Made by a program: the position numbers and the translations under genes. A DNA stretch of 64,000 bases from Candidatus Woesearchaeota archaeon (GTDB lineage: Archaea; Nanobdellota; Nanobdellia; Woesearchaeales; DSVV01), in assembly GCA_043813525.1 (NCBI GenBank), contig JBDRKY010000046.1, positions 13,053 through 77,052 on the forward strand, written 5' to 3'. The notes below the pieces were generated by a model, which was not told where the DNA came from, made no database searches, and was given only the letters and a program-made list of their open reading frames with translations. This document shows, piece after piece, positions 844 to 55,158 of this stretch (positions within the stretch are counted from its first letter, which is position 1; each line of letters starts with the position of its first letter).

Positions 844-1212
844 CTGTACCTCCATTGTTTACTTTTTGTTTTTCCTTATTTTTATGGTGGAAAGCACACC
901 AATTTTTAAATTTTAGTTAGATAACTAACTTATCCAAAACGCCTGAGATTAGAATGCAAATTCAATGAGATATTAAAAGATGCAAGACCATAATCTAAAC
1001 TCAGGCCTTAGTTAAAATAAAAATAGAACCAGTTAAAAAATAAATCAGCTAATGAAAGTTTACTATCTATATCAATTAATACGCAATCATTCATATTTTT
1101 AGCTAAATCTTTCATAATACAATTAGATAGGGATAATTTATATATAAATGTTTTGTAAAAGTTAGAGAAACCTTTAAAAAGTATAGAGAAATTCAACATT
1201 CATATTCAAAAT

Positions 1213-1476
1213 GGCGGCATAACTCAGCCTGGTGGATTTTGTTATATTTAATATTAGCAGATATCCAGGCAATTAGAGTGCTACGCTCATATTGTTGAGC
1301 TATGAGTTCCAAACTTGTTTTGGAGCAATGATTTTAACAAGAGGCACGTAGATGTCCCGCGTTCAAAAAATAGGTGCTTGACGCTGGCTGTTAGGTGATA
1401 GGAATTGGTTTTTAACCATGCTTCTAGCACCCAGCATTAAGCCATAGCACTTAAAATGAAAGTCGCGGTGCCGCCA
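1213..1476 (+). tRNA. tRNA-Met/Ile2 (anticodon CAU) apparently interrupted by three introns (D-loop, anticodon loop 37/38, T-loop); mature length about 74 nt
   Basis: The acceptor 5' GGCGGCA (1213-1219) pairs with TGCCGCC (1469-1475) and is followed by discriminator A1476. U8 is present. The D-stem ACTC (1222-1225) pairs with GAGT (1276-1279), with about 40 extra nt in the D-loop. The anticodon stem CTACG (1281-1285) pairs with CGTAG (1347-1351), the loop is CTCATA with CAT at 1288-1290, and roughly 54 nt are inserted after position 37. The variable loop is ATGTC. The T-stem CCGCG (1357-1361) pairs with CGCGG (1464-1468), the loop starts TTCAAAA, and about 95 nt are inserted. An oligo-T tract follows at 1477-1483. 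Confidence 0.6.
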
Positions 1477-1559
1477 TTTTTTTCTTTTTTTCTTTATTGT
1501 TCTAAAAGTAAATTTTATTAGTAAGATTTATATACCCCTACTAAGCAGATGATAAGGTT

Positions 1560-2969: not shown

Positions 2970-5657
2970 ATGAAAAAAGAGCAATATGATGATCAGTCTA
3001 CATTAACACCAGCGATGAAGCAATTTGTTTTCTTTAAAGAGAAATACCCAGATTGTCTTATATTATTCAGGATGGGTGATTTTTATGAGATGTTCTATGA
3101 TGATGCTAAATTAGCTTCTAAGATTCTGAATATCACACTGACCAAAAGAGGAACTAAAAATCCAGTTCCTTTAGCTGGTTTACCATACCATGCATTAGAC
3201 AATTATCTGGCAAAATTAATCAGAGCAGGGATCAAATGTGCGATATGCGAACAGATAGAAGATCCAAAAAAAGCTAAAGGTGTTGTCAAAAGAGATGTTA
3301 TCAGGGTTGTGACACCCGGAACAATCATTGATAATGGCCTTCTTTCAGATAGATCAAACAATTATCTGATGAGCCTGTCATTCTCAGACCAGTTGACAGG
3401 GATTGGGATAGTAGACCTGTCAACAGGTGAGTTTCTCACTACAGAATTATATAACGATAATAACAATAATAACTTGATGACTGAAATAAACAGGATAAAT
3501 CCTGCAGAGATAATATTTCCATCTGCACAGATAAATAATAGTATTATTCAACAGTTGAAAGAACAGAATTTTTATATCAATGAATATGAAGACAGGTTTT
3601 ATTTTTATGAGATAGCATATAATAATCTTAAGAATCATTTTAGTACAATCAACCTTGAAGGTTTTGGGCTTGAATCAGGAGGAGAAAAGAAAAAAATATC
3701 TATCGCTTGTTCAGGTGCATTGCTAAGTTATCTTCAGGAGACACAGAAAACAAGTTTAACCCACATCAACAAGATAAGATTTTTCAGCACAAGTGAATTT
3801 ATGATCTTAGACAAAGCAACAATAAGAAATCTTGAGATTGTGAATAATATAAGAGACCACACAGATGATAACACTCTGCTGGCAGTACTTGATAGGACAT
3901 TGACACCAATGGGATCAAGATTACTGAAAAGATGGCTGCTCAATCCATTATTGAATTTGAAACATATAAATTTACGCCTTGATGCAGTTGATTTTCTTTT
4001 CAGGAATATTTTAGTAAGACAAGAGTTAAAAGAATTATTTGATATTGTCAGGGATATTGAAAGGCTGATATCAAGAGTTAATTATGGAAACGCAAATGCC
4101 CGTGATCTATTGGGATTAAGACAATCTCTTAATATTCTCCCACAATTAAAAGAAATATTATTAGAACCTGATAATGAACTTATAGAAAATAATGAGATCT
4201 TAAAAAAAATTCATGATATTGATGACCTGAAAGATATTGCTGAATTAATCAGAAAAGGAATAAAAGAAGACCCTCCATTAAGCATAAATGATGGATGCAT
4301 AATAAAAACAGGCTGCAATAAAGAGCTGGATGAACTGCATGACATCTGCATCAATGGAAGGAGATATCTCAAGGATATTGAAGCAAAAGAACAGCAGAGG
4401 ACAGGCATAAGATCATTGAAAGTGAAATTCAACAGGGTGTTTGGTTATTTCATTGAGGTGACAAGGCCAAATCTTCATCTGATCCCAAAGAATGAAGACG
4501 GCAGTCTGGTATATATAAGGAAGCAGACAACAGCAAATGCTGAAAGATTTATAACAGAAGAGCTGAAACATTATGAAGAGAAGATCCTTGGAGCAGAGGA
4601 GAAAATTAAAGTTTTGGAACTAAACTTATTCAAAGAAATCTGCAATAAGATAATTGAAAAAACCAAAGAAATCCAGGATGCAAGCGATTTCATCGCAAAA
4701 GTTGATGTTCTATTAGGATTTGCAGCTGCTGCATCTGAATATAATTATACAAGACCTGAAGTTGATGATAAATTTTCTATAAGGCTTATGGAAGCAAGGC
4801 ATCCTGTGATCGAAAGGATTGAAAAAGTTTACATTCCAAATGATATCCATATCAGCAAAGACAATAAGACAATGATCATCACAGGACCAAACATGTCTGG
4901 GAAGAGTACAGTCATGAGACAGGTTGCATTATGTGTGCTTATGGCGCAGATCGGCAGCTTTGTGCCTGCAAAAAAAGCAGAGATTGGCATAGTGGACAGG
5001 ATTTTCACAAGGGTTGGCGCGCATGATGATCTGACACATGGCCAGTCCACTTTCATGGTTGAGATGAATGAAACTGCAACAATATTAAACAATGCCACAG
5101 AGAGCTCATTGATCATAATGGATGAGATTGGCCGCGGCACAAGTACATTTGACGGCGTCAGCATCGCATGGAGTGTTGCTGAATATATCAATAAAAATAT
5201 CAAAGCAAAGACATTATTTGCTACTCATTATCATGTCTTGACAAAGTTAGAAAAGTTTGATGGCGTAAAGAATTATCATATCGCTGTAAAAGAAAGCAAG
5301 ACAACAGACAGCAAAGGCAAGGTTAAGGACAATCTAATCTTTCTGCGTAAACTGATAGAAGGCGGCACTGATAAGAGCTTTGGTATTCATGTCGCTAAAT
5401 TAGCAGGCATGCCAAAAGAAGTAATAGACAAAGCAAAAGAAATTCAGTATAAATTAGAAGTTGCAGACAACATGAAAGATGAGATCATTGTTGAGAAGAA
5501 GAGAGGAAAAGATGATAATAAGATAGATAAGAAAGAAACTGAACATCTTATTAATTTTAATAATAAATCAGATACAGACAAATACAACAATAAAGAAAAA
5601 GATGATGAATTAATACAATTTACCAAACTAAGACAGAAAAGACTGATTGATCTATAG
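2970..5657 (+). CDS. mutS: DNA mismatch repair protein MutS (MutS1 type)
   Basis: 895 aa. N-terminal mismatch-binding region (MKQFVFFKEKYPDCLILFRMGDFYEMFYDDA). Walker A ITGPNMSGKSTVMRQVAL. MVEMNETATIL and DEIGRGTSTFDGVSIAWSVAEY motifs. C-terminal HTH-like tail. Confidence 0.9.
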   Translation: MKKEQYDDQSTLTPAMKQFVFFKEKYPDCLILFRMGDFYEMFYDDAKLASKILNITLTKRGTKNPVPLAGLPYHALDNYLAKLIRAGIKCAICEQIEDPKKAKGVVKRDVIRVVTPGTIIDNGLLSDRSNNYLMSLSFSDQLTGIGIVDLSTGEFLTTELYNDNNNNNLMTEINRINPAEIIFPSAQINNSIIQQLKEQNFYINEYEDRFYFYEIAYNNLKNHFSTINLEGFGLESGGEKKKISIACSGALLSYLQETQKTSLTHINKIRFFSTSEFMILDKATIRNLEIVNNIRDHTDDNTLLAVLDRTLTPMGSRLLKRWLLNPLLNLKHINLRLDAVDFLFRNILVRQELKELFDIVRDIERLISRVNYGNANARDLLGLRQSLNILPQLKEILLEPDNELIENNEILKKIHDIDDLKDIAELIRKGIKEDPPLSINDGCIIKTGCNKELDELHDICINGRRYLKDIEAKEQQRTGIRSLKVKFNRVFGYFIEVTRPNLHLIPKNEDGSLVYIRKQTTANAERFITEELKHYEEKILGAEEKIKVLELNLFKEICNKIIEKTKEIQDASDFIAKVDVLLGFAAAASEYNYTRPEVDDKFSIRLMEARHPVIERIEKVYIPNDIHISKDNKTMIITGPNMSGKSTVMRQVALCVLMAQIGSFVPAKKAEIGIVDRIFTRVGAHDDLTHGQSTFMVEMNETATILNNATESSLIIMDEIGRGTSTFDGVSIAWSVAEYINKNIKAKTLFATHYHVLTKLEKFDGVKNYHIAVKESKTTDSKGKVKDNLIFLRKLIEGGTDKSFGIHVAKLAGMPKEVIDKAKEIQYKLEVADNMKDEIIVEKKRGKDDNKIDKKETEHLINFNNKSDTDKYNNKEKDDELIQFTKLRQKRLIDL

Positions 5658-35776: not shown

Positions 35777-35998
35777 GCGTGCAAAAAATATTAGAGAATT
35801 AAAAAGCGAAAACTATTTATTCCAGTATTAATTCAAATTTCCTGACTTAGAGTTTTTATTCATCTGAGTAAAAGTTTTAGGTCGTGGGCTACACGTCCTT
35901 TCACTAAGGCTTGCAAGAGTCATGAAATTCAATCACAACAGCAATGAAGTGATGGTGAACAAACACTATGTGTTTAATGGGTGAGGGGGCTACATGAA

Positions 35999-36096: not shown

Positions 36097-37179
36097 ATGA
36101 ATTATCAAGAATTGTGTTCTTACCAAAACTTAGAGTTGGCTTTCAAGAAAGCGAGAAAAGGAAAAACAACAAAGGATTATGTCATTGCTTTTGAGAAAGA
36201 CATGAAAGAAAATCTAACTAACCTTCGTTATGAACTTCTTTTACATAGTTATCGACCAAAACCACTAGAAATATTTATTATTAGAGATCCAAAAACAAGA
36301 ACGATTAGCAAGTCAGATTTTAGAGATAGAGTTGTTCATCACGCCCTATGTAATGTTATTGCTCCAACATTTGAAAAACATTTTATCCATGACTCTTATG
36401 CCAACCAAGTTGGAAAGGGAGCATTGAAAGCAATTTCTCGTTTTGATGAGTTTACAAGAATAGCCTCCAACAATTACACTAAGAAGATATTTGTTCTAAA
36501 GGCTGACATAAGAAAATATTTTGAGAATGTCAACCACAACGTCTTATTAGAATTATTACAAGCGCAGATTAAAGACAAGAAGATATTATGGTTAATCAAA
36601 CTAATATTATCAAACCATGCAACAAAAGTATCAAACAAAGGAATGCCTTTAGGTAATCTAACTTCACAATTCTTTGCCAATGTTTATTTACATGAGTTAG
36701 ACTTGTTTGTTAAGCATATTATCAAAGCGAAATATTACATTCGTTACGTGGATGACTTTATTATCATCAATAAAAGTAAGAACAAACTGAAACAATTCAA
36801 GAAGGAAATTAACAAATTTCTTTTAGAAAAATTAGATTTAGAACTGCACCCAGAAAAATCGAGAATTATTCAACTACAAAAGGGGATTAATTTCTTAGGA
36901 TTTAGAATATTTCCACAATACAAACTACTTGTAAAAAAGAATTTGCGGAAATTTAAAGCAAAACTAAATAATTACTCTGAAAATTTCCCAAAGGGTTGTT
37001 CAGATTACGACAAAATCTATGATTTCTTAGAAGGTTGGACTGCTTATGCTAAATATGCTAGCACCTACAAGCTAAGAAAAGAAATATTCCAAAGTATTGA
37101 ACCAGTCTTTGAAAACCAAATGTCAACCAAAGAAATCAACAGATACCTCAAAACAATCAAGAATCATAAGAAATCTTGA
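36097..37179 (+). CDS. diversity-generating retroelement reverse transcriptase (DGR RT)
   Basis: 360 aa. RT domains 1-7 with the catalytic YVDDFII. Motif 4 is MPLGNLTSQFFANVYL, the DGR-type (I/L)GxxxSQ rather than the group II QGxxxSP. There is no maturase/X or En domain. The TR is directly upstream. Confidence 0.85.
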   Translation: MNYQELCSYQNLELAFKKARKGKTTKDYVIAFEKDMKENLTNLRYELLLHSYRPKPLEIFIIRDPKTRTISKSDFRDRVVHHALCNVIAPTFEKHFIHDSYANQVGKGALKAISRFDEFTRIASNNYTKKIFVLKADIRKYFENVNHNVLLELLQAQIKDKKILWLIKLILSNHATKVSNKGMPLGNLTSQFFANVYLHELDLFVKHIIKAKYYIRYVDDFIIINKSKNKLKQFKKEINKFLLEKLDLELHPEKSRIIQLQKGINFLGFRIFPQYKLLVKKNLRKFKAKLNNYSENFPKGCSDYDKIYDFLEGWTAYAKYASTYKLRKEIFQSIEPVFENQMSTKEINRYLKTIKNHKKS

Positions 37180-44271: not shown

Positions 44272-44507
44272 TCTGGGTATAAGTTCGGGCTGTAGGAAAT
44301 ATTAATTTAAATCCCAAATCCCAAATCCCAAATCCCAAATCCCAAATCCCAAATCCCAAACTCCAAAAAGGAGCTACGCTCTATATTCTTTTTGTTTTTG
44401 GGATTTATTTTTGTTGGGATTTGGTTTTTTTGGGATTTGTGATTTCCAAGCGTTAGCTTGGTTTGTGATTTATAATATTAATATCTAAAAACCCGAACTT
44501 AGATCCA
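44271..44507. mobile_element. MITE-like element B, inverted copy of 22000-22225, with six AATCCCAA tandem units
   Basis: A shared core, GGGTATAAGTTCGGGCTGTAGG...CTCCAAAAAGGAGCTACGCTCTATATTCTTTTTGTTTTTGGGATTTATTTTTGTTGGGATTTGGTTTTTTTGGGATTT...ATAATATTAATATCTAAAAACCCGAAC, is reverse-complementary to element A. Confidence 0.65.
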
Positions 44508-44967
44508 ACATCAGAATATCAATAATTTTATAAATACTTTATGATTTTTGGTGTATAATGTTAATGTAGTTTACTTATACTCATGCCAACGTGGCACATA
44601 TCTTAATCCTTCGGATAAAGAAGCACCACCTTGGCAATCGTTACACTCATGCCAACGTGGCACAACCTGGTACTGCGCAAGCCTGGAATATAGGATTTGT
44701 ATCAGTGAGCTTGTTTCCTCCGGGATATCCCAGTTCAAAAAAAAGTTAGAAAGTAAGAGAGTTTGAATGAAAAGCTTCTAACTTTTTTGAAAGTCTGGGC
44801 GTTGGCGTTTTACTCTTAAAATGGCATCATATTGCTGAGAAACTTTTTATTCCAGAAAAAGCTTGCTTCAAATATCTCCCCAAAACCCTAAACCCTTAAT
44901 TACCATTGTGATATAATTATGGTTTAGAACATTTTATTTTTATTATATAAAACATATAAATCAATCC

Positions 44968-50744: not shown

Positions 50745-51818
50745 ATGAATCTTACTGAGTTAAAAAGTTTACTAATTTCAGCAAAAAATGAGTTAAATGA
50801 ACAATTAAATCTCAAAAGAAGTAAACAAATTAAATATACAGAAAAGCAATATTTTGAATTAGTCACTTTTTTGAGTTTATGGAATATTGCTGGTGAAGAT
50901 GGAAGCAAGATAATGAATCAAATTGATGATGTTCCATCTGGTGATGCGTTGATGCAACAGCTTCAAAAATTTGCTATTGATGACGTGGAATTTATGTTCA
51001 ATAATATTTATGAAAAACAATTTCTAAAACAATTTAAGAAAAAAAAGAAACATAAAGCAATAGCAATAATTGATGTTCATGAGCAGGAAACTTATAGCAA
51101 AGATAAGCGAAAATCTGATGATATTCGTGGTGGCAAGCATAAGAACGGAACTAATTTTTTCTTTAAATTTGCTACAATCCAACTTATTATCAAGAACAAA
51201 ATAATTACATTGGGTGTAAAAATTCATCGACGAGGAATACATCTTTATAATATAGTAAATGATTTAGTTAAACATGTAAAAAAGTTTGTCAAGATTAAAG
51301 TTTTGTTATTGGATAGAGGTTTTAGAGATGTTGATATTTTCAATCAACTTGAATACCTTAAAATTCCAGTTTTAATGCCATGTATTAAAGATAAAAAAAC
51401 AAGAAAACAATTTGAAAAAGCTGTAAGAAAATTTTCAGTTGTGAAGTATTATTGGAAAAATTGTCGTGGAGAATTTGCAGATTTCAAATTGTTAATGATA
51501 AAACTTGATAATGAAAAAGAGATTGGTTTTTACACAACAATGAGGTATACTTTTCTTCATTCAGTAAGATATTACCTTAATCTTTACGCTAAAAGATGGA
51601 ATATTGAAACAGGTTATCGTCTACAAAAATATTTTCTGCCAAAAACAACATGTGTAAAAGGAGTTGTACGTTATTTTTATTTTTGTTATGCTGTTGCTAT
51701 GCATAATTTATGGCATATAATTAAGATTGTCACCGACAAAGTAACATTTACAGTCACAACAATGAAATTCATTCTGGTTTACTTTTGGATTACCACACAT
51801 TTAAGTTTTGAACTGTGA
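50745..51818 (+). CDS. DDE transposase, IS4/IS5-superfamily-like
   Basis: 357 aa with VLLLDRGFRDVD (second D region) and YAKRWNIETGYRLQK (the Y-x2-R-x3-E-x6-K signature around the catalytic E). It is preceded by 640 bp of non-coding DNA. The TIRs were not confidently identified. Confidence 0.6.
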   Translation: MNLTELKSLLISAKNELNEQLNLKRSKQIKYTEKQYFELVTFLSLWNIAGEDGSKIMNQIDDVPSGDALMQQLQKFAIDDVEFMFNNIYEKQFLKQFKKKKKHKAIAIIDVHEQETYSKDKRKSDDIRGGKHKNGTNFFFKFATIQLIIKNKIITLGVKIHRRGIHLYNIVNDLVKHVKKFVKIKVLLLDRGFRDVDIFNQLEYLKIPVLMPCIKDKKTRKQFEKAVRKFSVVKYYWKNCRGEFADFKLLMIKLDNEKEIGFYTTMRYTFLHSVRYYLNLYAKRWNIETGYRLQKYFLPKTTCVKGVVRYFYFCYAVAMHNLWHIIKIVTDKVTFTVTTMKFILVYFWITTHLSFEL

Positions 51819-52100: not shown

Positions 52101-52241
52101 ATGGCACAGAAAAATGTAACATTAAGTCTTGATGAAAATATTTACGATAATTATAAAGAATTTTGTAAAAAAAATGCAATAGCTTTATCAAGAAGTATAG
52201 AAGTTTTTATGGAAACAAAATCAAAAAAAGAGGAAAAATGA
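52101..52241 (+). CDS. small ribbon-helix-helix/CopG-like protein, candidate controller of the adjacent R-M genes
   Basis: 46 aa, MAQKNVTLSLDENIYDNYKEFCKKNAIALSRSIEVFMETKSKKEEK. Its stop overlaps the methyltransferase start (ATGA). Confidence 0.45.
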   Translation: MAQKNVTLSLDENIYDNYKEFCKKNAIALSRSIEVFMETKSKKEEK

Positions 52242-53839
52242 ATCAAGCATTAATATCAATGGGTGAAGCATCGAAATGGGCGTCAGAATATTTAGATAGA
52301 CCTGTCACTCAATCAAATATAAGTTATTTAATTCAATATGCTAAAATAAAAAAATACTATGATGAGCAAAAGAAAATAAAGATTAATCAAGATGAGTTAA
52401 AAAAGTATTATGATAAAGAAGTTGTACAAAAACAGCAACAATGGAAAAGTAAATTAGGTAAGGATTTAAATTGGGGGCTATCTTTTTCAAATTTAAGAGA
52501 AACAGATACTACAAAGCATGTTCATAGATTGCATCCCTATAAAGGAAAATTTATCCCTCAATTGGTTGAGTATTTTTTGGATTCTCATCTAAATACTTTC
52601 AAAAAACAAATATTTTTCAAGGAAGGAGATATTATTCTTGATCCTTTTATGGGAAGTGGAACAACACTCATACAATCATCAGAACTAGGTTTGCATTCAA
52701 TAGGCATAGATGTTTCAGATTTTAATTGTTTAATCTCTAAAGTGAAAATTGGAAAATATGATTTATCAAGATTGGATAAATTAGCAAGAGATATTTGTTT
52801 TAAGACAAGAGAATTTAGTCAAGATGTTTTTGATGATTCTTTCGATATGCAATTAAAAGAAAGATTGAGCGAGTTTAATAAAAATAATTTCCCAAATCCT
52901 GAATTCAAGAATAAAGTTAGAAAAGGTTTTATCAATAACGAAAAGGAATATGGAGAAGAAAAACTTAAACAATTCTTAAAAGAAAATAGAGAATTCTTTG
53001 AAGAAAATGGAACAAAAAACAAATCCAGATTATTAAATGAAAAAGATATGAACAGTTTTTTGAGTAAGTGGTTTTCAAAAAGAGTTAAACAAGAATTATT
53101 TTATTATATTAGATTTTTAGGCAAAATTGAAGATAAACAATTAAAAAATGTTTTAAGAATAATTCTAAGTAGAACTGCTCGTTCATGCAGAGCAACAAGA
53201 CACGCTGATTTGGCAACATTAAAAGAACCTCAAGTTGGACCATACTATTGTAGAAAGCATAAAAAATTATGTACCCCAATCAATTCCATTATTAAACATT
53301 TGATTAGATACACCTATGACACTACAAAAAGATTAAATGAATTTTCAGACATTAGAAAAAATGTTAATTCTGGAGTCATTCATGGAGATTCAAGAGAAGT
53401 AAACATTTTTGAAGAAATTAAAAAACAAAATCCAGAATTTTTTAAGTTATTAGAGAATAATAAAATAGCAGGGATTTTTACCTCTCCGCCTTATGTTGGA
53501 CAAATTGATTATCATGAGCAACATGCATATTCTTATGAATTATTTGATATTCCAAGAAAAGATGATAAAGAAATTGGACCTTTGTATAAGGGGCAAGGGA
53601 AACAAGCAAGAGATGAATATGTTGAAGGAATAAGTAATGTTTTAATCAATATAGGAAAATTTGTTAAAAATGATGGAGATTATTTCATAGTCGCAAATGA
53701 TAAATATAATTTGTATCCATTAATCGCAGAAAAAAGCAATTTAAAAATTGTTGATAAATTTAAAAGACCTGTTTTAAACAGAACAGAAAAAGATAGACAA
53801 CCTTATGCTGAAATAATATTTTATATGAAGAAAAAATGA
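52238..53839 (+). CDS. DNA methyltransferase (N6-adenine/N4-cytosine amino-MTase, alpha-class motif order)
   Basis: 533 aa. Motif I DPFMGSGTTL near residue 135 and motif IV IFTSPPYVGQIDY near residue 410, with a long intervening region (TRD). Confidence 0.75.
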   Translation: MNQALISMGEASKWASEYLDRPVTQSNISYLIQYAKIKKYYDEQKKIKINQDELKKYYDKEVVQKQQQWKSKLGKDLNWGLSFSNLRETDTTKHVHRLHPYKGKFIPQLVEYFLDSHLNTFKKQIFFKEGDIILDPFMGSGTTLIQSSELGLHSIGIDVSDFNCLISKVKIGKYDLSRLDKLARDICFKTREFSQDVFDDSFDMQLKERLSEFNKNNFPNPEFKNKVRKGFINNEKEYGEEKLKQFLKENREFFEENGTKNKSRLLNEKDMNSFLSKWFSKRVKQELFYYIRFLGKIEDKQLKNVLRIILSRTARSCRATRHADLATLKEPQVGPYYCRKHKKLCTPINSIIKHLIRYTYDTTKRLNEFSDIRKNVNSGVIHGDSREVNIFEEIKKQNPEFFKLLENNKIAGIFTSPPYVGQIDYHEQHAYSYELFDIPRKDDKEIGPLYKGQGKQARDEYVEGISNVLINIGKFVKNDGDYFIVANDKYNLYPLIAEKSNLKIVDKFKRPVLNRTEKDRQPYAEIIFYMKKK

Positions 53840-54333: not shown

Positions 54334-55158
54334 TTAAACATCCATTTTTTCTTCGGCAACTTCTTTAATTTTAGTTTGTATTTTTTCCTTAAACTCTTTT
54401 CCCACTTCATCAAAAATATCAAGAATCTCTTTATATGTTCCTTCTCCACCCAATAACTTCCAGAATTTTTCAGCAACATAAAGCTCTTTTTCTTCATCCA
54501 AATAACCTTGCATTGTAAATCTGCTATATGATTCTGGGTGGTAAGGATTGTAAGGAATTGCTAAGATTGTATTTACTTTCTTTTTTCTAAGTGCTACCCA
54601 TTCCAACAATTTTTGTTTTGATTTGACAAAAACATCTATATTTGGTTTGGCTGTTTTTATTTCAATATAATACTCATCATTTCCTTTTTTTAGAAATAAA
54701 TCTGCTCTAATTTTTATTTTTCTTCCGCCATTATTATTACACTTTAAAATTTCACTAATTTCCTGTTCTTCATTCGCTTTCCTAGTTCCATTTTTTATTT
54801 CCTGTAGAATTTGAGATATTACTGTATTTTCTTCGTTTGTAATTTCCCCTTCAACATCATAGCCCGTTTTAACTTCATCATAACTTGTTAATGCTACAAT
54901 TTCAGAGATTTTTTCATAAATTGACATTCCTAAGGTTGTAGCTAATGAATGGATGAAAGAATATGCAGCTACTTTTTCAGAATCTTGCATAAGTTTTGCT
55001 AAAAAAGGCATAGATGTTGTTTCTCTTGCATACTTGGATAGTTTGTCATTTAGTTTAGTTCTTAATAATTCCTTGATTTTCTCTACTTGTTCTTTATTCA
55101 GTGCCATATTTAAATAAAGATAGACTTTCATATATAAATGTTCTTCTGTTTTGTACAT
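54334..55158 (-). CDS. putative type II restriction endonuclease (PD-(D/E)xK, TdeIII-like)
   Basis: 274 aa with IRADLFLKKGNDEYYIEIKTAKPN (the D...E-x-K catalytic pattern). It is convergent with and adjacent to the MTase locus. Confidence 0.45.
   Translation of the reverse strand: MYKTEEHLYMKVYLYLNMALNKEQVEKIKELLRTKLNDKLSKYARETTSMPFLAKLMQDSEKVAAYSFIHSLATTLGMSIYEKISEIVALTSYDEVKTGYDVEGEITNEENTVISQILQEIKNGTRKANEEQEISEILKCNNNGGRKIKIRADLFLKKGNDEYYIEIKTAKPNIDVFVKSKQKLLEWVALRKKKVNTILAIPYNPYHPESYSRFTMQGYLDEEKELYVAEKFWKLLGGEGTYKEILDIFDEVGKEFKEKIQTKIKEVAEEKMDV

What the first reader, a model, noticed from the sequence alone, without database searches (positions are those of the whole stretch)
1213..1476. 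tRNA(CAU) gene apparently split by three introns, 264 nt for a 74-nt tRNA
All canonical helices can be assembled, but only by skipping three inserts. One of about 40 nt sits in the D-loop, between AGCCTGG and TTA-GAGT. One of about 54 nt sits at the canonical 37/38 site, where CTCATA is followed by the distant CGTAG that completes the anticodon stem. One of about 95 nt sits in the T-loop, where CCGCG-TTCAAAA is completed by CGCGG 100 nt downstream. A 7-bp acceptor stem (GGCGGCA/TGCCGCC), discriminator A and an oligo-T terminator frame the gene. Multi-intron tRNAs at non-canonical positions are rare, reported mainly in Thermoproteales and some DPANN lineages. Each intron should form a bulge-helix-bulge or relaxed BHB motif for the splicing endonuclease. 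This CAU tRNA has G1:C72 and no three-G:C anticodon stem, so it is an elongator Met or a Ile2 (agmatidine) tRNA rather than an initiator.
Basis: seen in the sequence. Interest (0 to 1): 0.6.

Follow-up and report, generated by a model that had tools for sequence, protein, structure and literature searches.

The report
Three-intron tRNA(CAU) gene in Woesearchaeota
This is a real archaeal tRNA gene (anticodon CAU) cut into four pieces by three short protein-spliced introns, which is a rare but already known arrangement, found here in a Woesearchaeota genome where standard tRNA finders miss it.

Summary
Window 1213-1476(+) encodes a 75-nt tRNA(CAU) in four exons: 1213-1232, 1273-1291, 1346-1367 and 1463-1476. 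The three introns are 40 nt in the D-loop (19/20), 54 nt at the canonical 37/38 site, and 95 nt in the T-loop (59/60).

ARAGORN and Rfam find nothing in the raw DNA. ARAGORN calls the spliced product tRNA-Met(cat). The unspliced 264 nt folds by itself into a cloverleaf with three extension hairpins (z = -4.3).

The strongest evidence is comparative. Related metagenomic and Woesearchaeota-MAG contigs carry the same gene. Two variants lack the D-loop intron and read AGCCTGG|TTAGAGT, exactly the predicted splice junction. A third has a different 22-nt intron at the same site. All keep the 37/38 and 59/60 introns, and stems show compensatory changes.

Each junction fits a relaxed bulge-helix-bulge motif, with cleavage after the second bulge nucleotide. 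Three introns is the published maximum, and D-loop and 59/60 sites have precedents, so this is a new member of a known kind. Elongator Met versus Ile2 identity is unresolved; initiator is excluded.

A second hidden gene, a two-intron tRNA-Ser(GGA), lies at 44651-44807.

The parts
1173..1186 (+). Putative archaeal TATA-like promoter element (TTTAAAAAGTATAG), about 27-40 nt upstream of the mature 5' end
   Evidence: Read from the sequence. All relatives have TTTATAAA(T/C) about 25-40 nt upstream of the mature 5' end. Its function is inferred.
1213..1232 (+). Exon 1 (20 nt; tRNA positions 1-19 including 17a): acceptor 5' strand, U8, A9, D-stem 5' strand, D-loop AGCCUGG
   Evidence: This 20-mer is identical in 5 metagenome loci.
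1233..1272 (+). Intron 1 (40 nt) in the D-loop between G19 and U20. Central helix GCCU 1227-1230 / AGGC 1267-1270. 5' bulge GG|U 1231-1233. 3' bulge AA|U 1271-1273. Inner helix GGAU 1234-1237 / AUCC 1263-1266.
   Evidence: This stretch is exactly absent in the L081 and L082 types, which read AGCCTGG|TTAGAGT. The L084 type has an unrelated 22-nt intron with the same BHB geometry at the same site. Constrained fold.
1273..1291 (+). Exon 2 (19 nt; positions 20-37): UUA, D-stem 3' strand, G26, anticodon stem 5' strand, C32 U33 C34 A35 U36 A37
1292..1345 (+). Intron 2 (54 nt) at canonical 37/38. 3' bulge GC|A 1344-1346. Central helix C1286-G1343, U1287-A1342, C1288-G1341 plus an A1289.A1340 mismatch. 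5' bulge UA|U 1290-1292. Inner helix UGU 1293-1295 / ACA 1337-1339, extended by UGAG 1296-1299 / UUUA 1333-1336. It contains a G.A / U.U / A.G internal loop (1300-1305 / 1327-1332).
   Evidence: An intron sits at the same site in all relatives, with a conserved ACAAGAGGC 3' end.
1346..1367 (+). Exon 3 (22 nt; positions 38-59): A38, anticodon stem 3' strand, variable loop AUGUC, T-stem 5' strand, UUCAAA
1368..1462 (+). Intron 3 (95 nt) in the T-loop at 59/60. Central helix UUCA 1362-1365 / UGAA 1457-1460. 3' bulge AG|U 1461-1463. The 5' bulge AA|A lies within a 5x3 A-rich internal loop. The rest is a long imperfect hairpin (-29.9 kcal/mol, z = -3.3).
   Evidence: Relatives carry a 29-nt intron at the same site with the same UG(A/G)A-AG|U 3' junction.
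1463..1476 (+). Exon 4 (14 nt; positions 60-73): U60, T-stem 3' strand, acceptor 3' strand, discriminator A73. CCA is not encoded.
1477..1491 (+). Oligo-T tracts (T7 C T7), a likely archaeal transcription terminator
   Evidence: Read from the sequence. Relatives also have T-runs directly after A73. Its function is inferred.

Best explanation
Window 1213-1476(+) is a functional, transcribed gene for a 75-nt archaeal elongator-type tRNA with anticodon CAU (tRNA-Met or tRNA-Ile2). It lies in a Candidatus Woesearchaeota (DPANN) genome and is interrupted by three protein-spliced bulge-helix-bulge introns.

Inferred pathway:
1. Transcription starts from an A/T-rich TATA element and stops at the oligo-T run.
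2. The precursor folds into the cloverleaf with three extension hairpins.
3. The archaeal splicing endonuclease (EndA) recognises a 4-bp helix flanked by bulges at each insertion. It cuts after the second bulge nucleotide on each strand.
4. The four exons (20, 19, 22 and 14 nt) stay held together by the acceptor, D, anticodon and T stems. An RtcB-type ligase joins them, and the introns are probably released as circles.
5. RNase P, RNase Z and the CCA-adding enzyme finish the ends.

All three motifs are relaxed rather than strict, so the enzyme must be a broad-specificity EndA.

What is shown here: the gene structure, the junction positions, conservation and covariation. What is inferred from established archaeal tRNA biology: every enzymatic step.
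For: - The spliced product is called tRNA-Met(cat), 75 nt, by ARAGORN, with all four stems fully Watson-Crick paired.
- By direct reading, the spliced sequence also carries the expected conserved bases: U8, A14, G18, G19, A21, U33, A37, G53, U54-U55-C56, A58 and C61, and it allows G15:C48.
- The MFE of the unspliced 264 nt is the cloverleaf with three arms (-90.3 kcal/mol, z = -4.33).
- Forcing all three BHB conformers costs only 4.4 kcal/mol, and 4.7-8.7 kcal/mol in relatives.
- Five metagenome loci and further contigs carry the same gene in three other variants. One of these contigs comes from NCBI assembly GCA_018657385.1. Two variants lack intron 1 exactly at the predicted junction, and one has a different 22-nt intron there.
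- Compensatory changes occur at 28:42 (U-A vs C-G), at 52:62 (C-G vs A-U) and in the intron-1 inner helix. All 140 cells pair, against 34-45% in slid controls.
- The 'cut after the second bulge nucleotide' rule reproduces the intron-less relatives' D-loop (AGCCUGGUUA) and gives the consensus T-loop UUCAAAU.
- The host is archaeal and named Woesearchaeota.
- A second gene in the same window, tRNA-Ser(GGA) at 44651-44807, has a strict 37/38 BHB intron. It also has a strict 59/60 intron with the same TTCAAA|AAA...TGAAAG|T junction.
- Literature: archaeal tRNAs carry up to three introns; 59/60 and D-loop introns are known; DPANN lineages show heavy tRNA gene disruption (PMC3239211, PMC5829648, PMC8450103).
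Against: - There are no RNA-level data, so neither splicing nor expression has been observed.
- None of the three motifs is a strict hBHBh'. In intron 1, the MFE prefers a register in which the 5' bulge GG is paired. Intron 2 has an A.A mismatch in the 4-bp helix. In intron 3, the 5' bulge sits in a 5x3 internal loop.
- No EndA or RtcB gene lies in the window (Pfam scans).
- Only four distinct sequences support the covariation, so the statistics are thin (9 of 500 shuffles reach the observed values).
Confidence: 0.9

Rival explanations
1. It is a decaying tRNA pseudogene whose loops have been hit by three unrelated insertions, and it no longer yields a functional tRNA.
For: ARAGORN and Rfam do not detect it. 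All three BHB motifs are imperfect. Intron 3 is three times longer than in relatives.
Against: The exons are fully intact and covary. Insertions sit precisely where a 4-bp helix plus bulges can form. Relatives with different intron sequences keep the same geometry. The TATA element and oligo-T run are conserved. The same 59/60 arrangement recurs in tRNA-Ser in this window.
Confidence: 0.05
2. It is a different structured RNA (for example a self-splicing intron-bearing tRNA, a tRNA-like element or a small regulatory RNA), and the tRNA parse is coincidental.
For: The strong fold of the whole region would also be expected of other structured RNAs. A parse with six free boundaries is permissive.
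Against: No Rfam family matches, even at E <= 10, beyond noise hits. The inserts are far too short for group I or group II introns. Relatives delete exactly one insert and leave a canonical D-loop.
Confidence: 0.02
3. The gene is real, but at least one intron has an added function beyond being spliced out. Intron 2 may carry a K-turn-like G.A/U.U/A.G loop that binds L7Ae. The 95-nt T-loop intron may give a stable circular RNA.
For: There is a symmetric loop at 1300-1305 / 1327-1332. C-box-like AUGAUGA or GAUGA sequences sit on the 3' strand of intron 2 in relatives. The intron 3 hairpin has z = -3.3.
Against: No D box (CUGA) is present and I could not find a guide complementarity. The intron 3 sequence is not conserved in relatives. 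No copies occur elsewhere in the window.
Confidence: 0.15

Closest known systems
Multiple-intron tRNA genes of Thermoproteales (Pyrobaculum, Thermofilum, Caldivirga; Sugahara et al. 2007/2008, as cited in PMC4033280 and PMC8450103)
   Same: Up to three BHB or relaxed-BHB introns in one tRNA gene. One is at 37/38 and the others are at non-canonical sites, including the D and T arms. Introns turn over quickly between relatives.
   Different: The host here is a low-GC (32%) DPANN archaeon (Woesearchaeota), not a hyperthermophilic crenarchaeon. Its EndA type is unknown here, whereas Thermoproteales use (alpha-beta)2 with the Crenarchaea-specific loop.
ARMAN-2 (Ca. Micrarchaeum) disrupted tRNAs: pre-tRNA-Cys(GCA) with a 59/60 hBH intron, pre-tRNA-Pro(GGG) with two T-loop introns (PMC3239211)
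   Same: A DPANN host. The same 59/60 T-loop insertion site. Relaxed motifs that need a broad-specificity endonuclease.
   Different: The cases described there have one or two introns, and this gene has three. ARMAN-2 uses the epsilon2 EndA. Kaneta et al. 2018 link tRNA gene disruption in several DPANN lineages to alpha4-type EndA with an L3 loop; the EndA of this lineage was not examined here.
Methanopyrus kandleri pre-tRNA-Glu(UUC) with a canonical intron plus a D-loop HBh' intron (PMC5829648)
   Same: A relaxed HBh'-type intron in the D-loop combined with a 37/38 intron in the same precursor.
   Different: That gene has two introns rather than three, in a different tRNA and phylum.
Three-intron elongator tRNA-Met in a eukaryotic alga (described in PMC4090602)
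   Same: The same isoacceptor class (CAU elongator) carrying three introns.
   Different: That is a eukaryotic gene with very short introns and a different splicing context.

Membership tests
Canonical type I tRNA | 7/4/5/5-bp cloverleaf stems, a 7-nt anticodon loop and a 7-nt T-loop after removal of the inserts | tested here: met
   ARAGORN calls the spliced 75-mer tRNA-Met(cat), and all 21 stem pairs are Watson-Crick.
Canonical type I tRNA | Conserved and tertiary-interaction nucleotides: U8-A14, G18G19, A21, G15:C48, U33, purine 37, G53-C61, U54U55C56, A58 | tested here: met
   Read directly from the spliced sequence GGCGGCAUAACUCAGCCUGGUUAGAGUGCUACGCUCAUAACGUAGAUGUCCCGCGUUCAAAUCGCGGUGCCGCCA.
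Canonical type I tRNA | Stems maintained by compensatory change in relatives | tested here: met
   28:42 is U-A vs C-G and 52:62 is C-G vs A-U. Pairing is 100% against 34-45% in slid controls. Only 4 distinct sequences are available.
Archaeal BHB (hBHBh' or relaxed) tRNA intron | A 4-bp central helix flanked by two 3-nt bulges on opposite strands | tested here: inconclusive
   Intron 1 meets it in an alternative register only. Intron 2 has 3 Watson-Crick pairs plus A.A. Intron 3 has a strict 3' bulge, but its 5' bulge lies inside a 5x3 loop. All three fit the published relaxed classes (HBh'/hBH), not the strict motif. The three-BHB fold costs +4.4 kcal/mol over the MFE.
Archaeal BHB (hBHBh' or relaxed) tRNA intron | Symmetric cleavage sites whose ligation restores a canonical tRNA | tested here: met
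   Cutting after the second bulge nucleotide gives D-loop AGCCUGGUUA, which is identical to the intron-less relatives. It also gives anticodon loop CUCAUAA and T-loop UUCAAAU.
Archaeal BHB (hBHBh' or relaxed) tRNA intron | The host is an archaeon encoding EndA and an RNA ligase | tested here: inconclusive
   An archaeal host is shown (S24e, L10P insert, RpoE/Rpb7-like; the neighbouring protein is named Ca. Woesearchaeota). No EndA or RtcB was found among the roughly 50 window ORFs scanned. The rest of the genome is not available.
Archaeal BHB (hBHBh' or relaxed) tRNA intron | The introns are actually excised and the exons ligated in vivo | not testable with these tools
   No RNA data are available.
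Archaeal initiator tRNA-Met | A1:U72 and three consecutive G:C pairs (29-31:39-41) in the anticodon stem (established knowledge) | tested here: not met
   The gene has G1:C72, and its anticodon stem is CUACG/CGUAG.
tRNA-Ile2 (agmatidine) versus elongator tRNA-Met | Isotype-specific identity elements or covariance-model score (tRNAscan-SE 2.0 Ile2 and Met models), and TiaS present in the genome | not testable with these tools
   The isotype models are not available here. Literature look-ups gave no usable archaeal determinants. The other CAU tRNAs of the genome lie outside the window.
Group I or group II intron-containing tRNA | A match to self-splicing intron covariance models, with an intron of 200 nt or more | tested here: not met
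   There are no Rfam hits at the gathering threshold or at E <= 10. The inserts are 40, 54 and 95 nt.

The most novel reading that the evidence does not exclude
Non-canonical tRNA introns (D-loop 19/20, T-loop 59/60) may be actively gained, lost and replaced within one closely related Woesearchaeota clade (neighbouring proteins 72-87% identical). In that case these populations would be a natural time series for tRNA-intron turnover outside Thermoproteales. Some of the introns (the K-turn-like intron 2, the 95-nt hairpin of intron 3) might also persist as functional circular RNAs.
Probability: 0.25. Interest if true: 0.6.

Novelty: new member of a known kind. Interest (0 to 1): 0.4.

Why it matters
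- It shows that DPANN (Woesearchaeota) genomes carry tRNA genes at the known maximum of three introns. Generic finders (ARAGORN, Rfam tRNA model) miss them completely, and both tRNA genes I could find in this 64-kb window are of this kind. That bears directly on 'missing tRNA' calls and completeness estimates for DPANN MAGs. Kaneta et al. 2018 raised this concern explicitly.
- The presence/absence and size polymorphism of the D-loop and T-loop introns among close relatives is useful material for the debate on how non-canonical introns arise.
- It predicts a broad-specificity EndA in this lineage.
- It does not reveal a new mechanism.

Tried and rejected
- ARAGORN on the window, default and with intron options, found 0 genes. 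Only at a relaxed threshold did it give three implausible calls, one a spurious 'Thr' overlapping 1117-1298.
- Rfam gave no tRNA hit at the gathering threshold. At E <= 10 over 1100-1600 it gave only noise (miRNA, snoRNA, Leptospira sRNA).
- BLAST of the three introns against the window and all loci found no other copies, so there is no evidence here for a repeated mobile intron family.
- An exact-protein look-up of the neighbouring ORF (1560-2195) and of P0001 found nothing on record.
- The MutS search in GTDB representative genomes gave a best hit of only 50% identity, and none of the fetched loci carries the tRNA exon-1 sequence.
- Loci around the neighbouring-gene homologues P0011 (54% identity), P0002, P0006 and P0008 carry no copy of the tRNA, so no further variants were obtained.
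- Intron 2 as a cis-acting box C/D guide was rejected. There are C-box-like motifs but no D box (CUGA), and I found no guide complementarity.
- A nested intron inside the 95-nt intron 3 was considered. It has no similarity to the 29-nt introns of relatives beyond the junction, so I treat it as sequence replacement or expansion.
- Literature look-ups could not discriminate Met from Ile2, because no usable archaeal determinants were retrieved.
- A crude scan for further tRNAs with intact T-arms found none credible.

Full report
**What is in the sequence.** Window 1213-1476(+) reads as follows:

- GGCGGCA-UA-ACUC-AGCCUGG
- [40 nt]
- UUA-GAGU-G-CUACG-CUCAUA
- [54 nt]
- A-CGUAG-AUGUC-CCGCG-UUCAAA
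- [95 nt]
- U-CGCGG-UGCCGCC-A, followed by T7 C T7.

ARAGORN (with intron options) finds no tRNA anywhere in the 64-kb window. Rfam also finds none, at the gathering threshold or at permissive thresholds. The only corrections are that the mature RNA is 75 nt and that the last T-loop base (U60 = U1463) comes from the final exon.

**Is it a tRNA?** I joined exons 1213-1232, 1273-1291, 1346-1367 and 1463-1476. The result is a 75-mer that ARAGORN calls tRNA-Met(cat), with perfect 7/4/5/5 stems.

- It carries U8, A14, G18G19, A21, G15:C48, U33, A37, G53:C61, U54U55C56 and A58, plus a 5-nt variable loop and A73.
- The exons are 57% G+C. The introns are 28-41% G+C, and the genome is 32%.
- The unspliced 264-nt RNA has the cloverleaf with three long extension hairpins as its minimum-free-energy structure. 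The energy is -90.3 kcal/mol with z = -4.33, and none of 200 shuffles folds as well.

A caveat: a parse with six free boundaries is permissive. My crude 'acceptor plus split T-arm' pattern gives about five chance hits per random 64 kb. Sequence-internal evidence alone would therefore not be conclusive.

**Comparative evidence, which decides the case.** A scan of metagenome contigs with the 20-nt exon 1 found five loci. Look-ups through homologues of the neighbouring exonuclease gene found more, including NCBI assembly GCA_018657385.1. The homologue used for that look-up is named Candidatus Woesearchaeota archaeon by NCBI. Together they give three further variants of the gene.

- **D-loop intron.** The L081 and L082 types have no D-loop insert and read AGCCTGG|TTAGAGT. 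The MAFFT alignment shows a clean 40-column gap exactly at my predicted intron 1. The L084 type has an unrelated 22-nt insert (AAGATGTTGATCATCTGGGCAA) at the same site.
- **Other introns.** All variants keep an intron at 37/38 (47-48 nt) and one at 59/60 (29 nt, against 95 nt in the window).
- **Exon covariation.** The exons differ from the window at only four positions, which form two compensatory pairs: 28:42 U-A vs C-G, and 52:62 C-G vs A-U.
- **Pair counts.** Across cloverleaf and BHB helices, 140 of 140 cells pair and 3 pairs have double changes. Slid controls pair at 34-45%. With four sequences the shuffle statistic is modest (9 of 500).
- **Flanking signals.** A TTTATAAA-type element lies about 25-40 nt upstream in the relatives, with TTTAAAAAGTATAG at the corresponding place in the window. 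T-runs follow A73 in every copy.
- **Relatedness.** Neighbouring genes (the exonuclease and MutS) are 72-87% identical to those of the window, so these are close relatives.

**Splice-site anatomy.** The rule is that EndA cuts after the second nucleotide of each 3-nt bulge flanking a 4-bp helix. I recalled this rule from memory. It is validated here because it alone reproduces the intron-less D-loop of the relatives.

- **Intron 1 (19/20).**
  - Helix GCCU 1227-1230 / AGGC 1267-1270.
  - Bulges GG|U (1231-1233) and AA|U (1271-1273).
  - Inner helix GGAU / AUCC.
  - The outer side is only A14-U plus the D-stem, so this is an HBh'-like motif.
  - In the MFE, the GG of the 5' bulge instead pairs with CC 1265-1266.
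  - L084 keeps the same geometry with different bases (U.G in the central helix; AGAUG/CAUCU as the inner helix).
- **Intron 2 (37/38).**
  - Outer helix is the anticodon stem.
  - 3' bulge GC|A38.
  - Central helix C32-G, U33-A, C34-G plus an A35.A mismatch that is conserved in all four variants.
  - 5' bulge U36 A37|U.
  - Inner helix UGU / ACA, continuing as UGAG / UUUA in the window.
- **Intron 3 (59/60).**
  - Outer helix is the T-stem.
  - 3' bulge AG|U60.
  - Central helix UUCA / UGAA.
  - The 5' bulge AA|A is embedded in a 5x3 A-rich loop, so this is hBH-like.

Forcing all three motifs at once costs 4.4 kcal/mol relative to the MFE in the window, and 4.7-8.7 kcal/mol in the relatives. 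All three introns are therefore relaxed BHB substrates.

**Host and mechanism.** The window encodes archaeal or eukaryote-type proteins: S24e, L10P with its insertion domain, L1, an Rpb7-like RpoE and SFM1. Its exonuclease is 100% identical to an NCBI protein from a Candidatus Woesearchaeota MAG. No EndA or RtcB gene lies in the window.

The inferred pathway is transcription, EndA cleavage at the three motifs, RtcB-type ligation of four exons held together by the cloverleaf stems, RNase P and RNase Z trimming, and CCA addition (CCA is not encoded). This pathway rests on established archaeal biology, not on data from here.

Kaneta et al. 2018 (PMC5829648) report several relevant points. Only certain EndA types, or those with specific loop inserts, cut relaxed non-canonical introns. 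[quoted passage not shown] Incomplete tRNA sets in DPANN probably hide undetected disrupted genes. That study also predicted tRNA genes from a Woesearchaeota MAG.

**Identity.** Initiator is excluded by G1:C72 and the lack of a G:C triplet in the anticodon stem. I could not resolve elongator Met from Ile2 (agmatidine). The isotype models are not available here, and the literature I could reach gave no usable archaeal determinants.

**Comparison with what is known.**
- Archaeal tRNA genes carry 'one to a maximum of three' introns (PMC3239211; PMC4033280; PMC8450103).
- A 59/60 hBH intron is described in ARMAN-2 pre-tRNA-Cys.
- A D-loop HBh' intron is described in M. kandleri pre-tRNA-Glu.
- The BHB models of tRNAscan-SE 2.0 were trained on Crenarchaeota, Euryarchaeota and Thaumarchaeota, not on DPANN.
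- A full-text search for Woesearchaeota with tRNA, introns and splicing endonuclease returned only two papers. I found no description of such a gene in the one I read.

This is therefore a new member of a known kind, at the known upper limit of intron number and in a lineage where it is expected but poorly documented.

**Extra finding that supports the reading.** My split-T-arm scan also picked up 44651-44807(+).
- Splicing out 44689-44707 and 44740-44793 gives an 84-nt tRNA-Ser(GGA) that ARAGORN accepts, with G73 and an oligo-T run.
- The first intron is 19 nt at 37/38 and has a strict BHB: CUGG/UCAG with bulges AA|U and UG|A.
- The second is 54 nt at 59/60 and is also strict: UUCA/UGAA with bulges AA|A and AG|U.
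- Its 59/60 junction (TTCAAA|AAA...TGAAAG|T) is nearly the same as in the CAU gene.

Both tRNA genes I could find in this window are multi-intron genes that ARAGORN and the Rfam tRNA model do not detect.

**Verdict.** The gene-level conclusion has high confidence (about 0.9). Splicing itself is inferred. Interest is moderate. The value lies in annotation of DPANN tRNA sets and in the intron presence, absence and size polymorphism among close relatives, not in a new mechanism.

Noticed in passing
window 44651-44807 (+): A second hidden disrupted tRNA gene, tRNA-Ser(GGA). Its exons are 44651-44688, 44708-44739 and 44794-44807. It has a 19-nt strict-BHB intron at 37/38 and a 54-nt strict-BHB intron at 59/60. 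ARAGORN calls the spliced 84-mer tRNA-Ser(gga). ARAGORN and Rfam miss it in the raw DNA.
   Followed up: yes
window 44580-44598 and 44646-44664 (+): A 19-nt direct repeat, CTCATGCCAACGTGGCACA. The 5' end of tRNA-Ser plus 5 leader bases is duplicated 66 nt upstream. The upstream copy can pair with CCACCTTGGC (44626-44635), giving an acceptor-like hairpin. The only TATA-like elements lie upstream of the first copy. This could be a leader hairpin, a rearrangement scar or a further intron-like insert. It is unexplained.
   Followed up: partly
window about 44310-44440: A tandem heptamer repeat, (AAATCCC) about 8 times, followed within 100 nt by several inverted GGGATTT copies. It lies in the intergenic region upstream of tRNA-Ser.
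   Followed up: no
window 35845-35998 (+) and 36097-37179 (+): An RT-16 RNA (Rfam RF03019, 69.6 bits, E = 1e-8) lies immediately upstream of an RVT_1 reverse transcriptase ORF. This is an RT-associated structured RNA module in a Woesearchaeota contig.
   Followed up: no
window 1300-1305 / 1327-1332 (inside intron 2); same region in L081, L082, L084: A symmetric internal loop gives G.A / U.U / A.G. Relatives have GAUGA/GAUGA or a C-box-like AUGAUGA on the 3' strand. This is a possible K-turn or L7Ae site in the 37/38 intron. There is no D box.
   Followed up: partly
L084/L100 versus the window: The tRNA gene is inverted relative to the adjacent exonuclease and MutS genes in the L084-type contig compared with the window and the L082 type. 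This indicates a local rearrangement around the tRNA.
   Followed up: no
L101/L102 (relatives), MutS gene: In one related lineage the MutS homologue is 1345 aa and carries an intein with a LAGLIDADG domain (Pfam Intein_splicing, LAGLIDADG_3). The window's MutS (2970-5657) has none.
   Followed up: no
window 50745-51818, 52238-53839, 54334-55158: A DDE transposase lies next to an N6/N4 DNA methylase and a TdeIII-type restriction endonuclease. This may be a mobile restriction-modification island.
   Followed up: no
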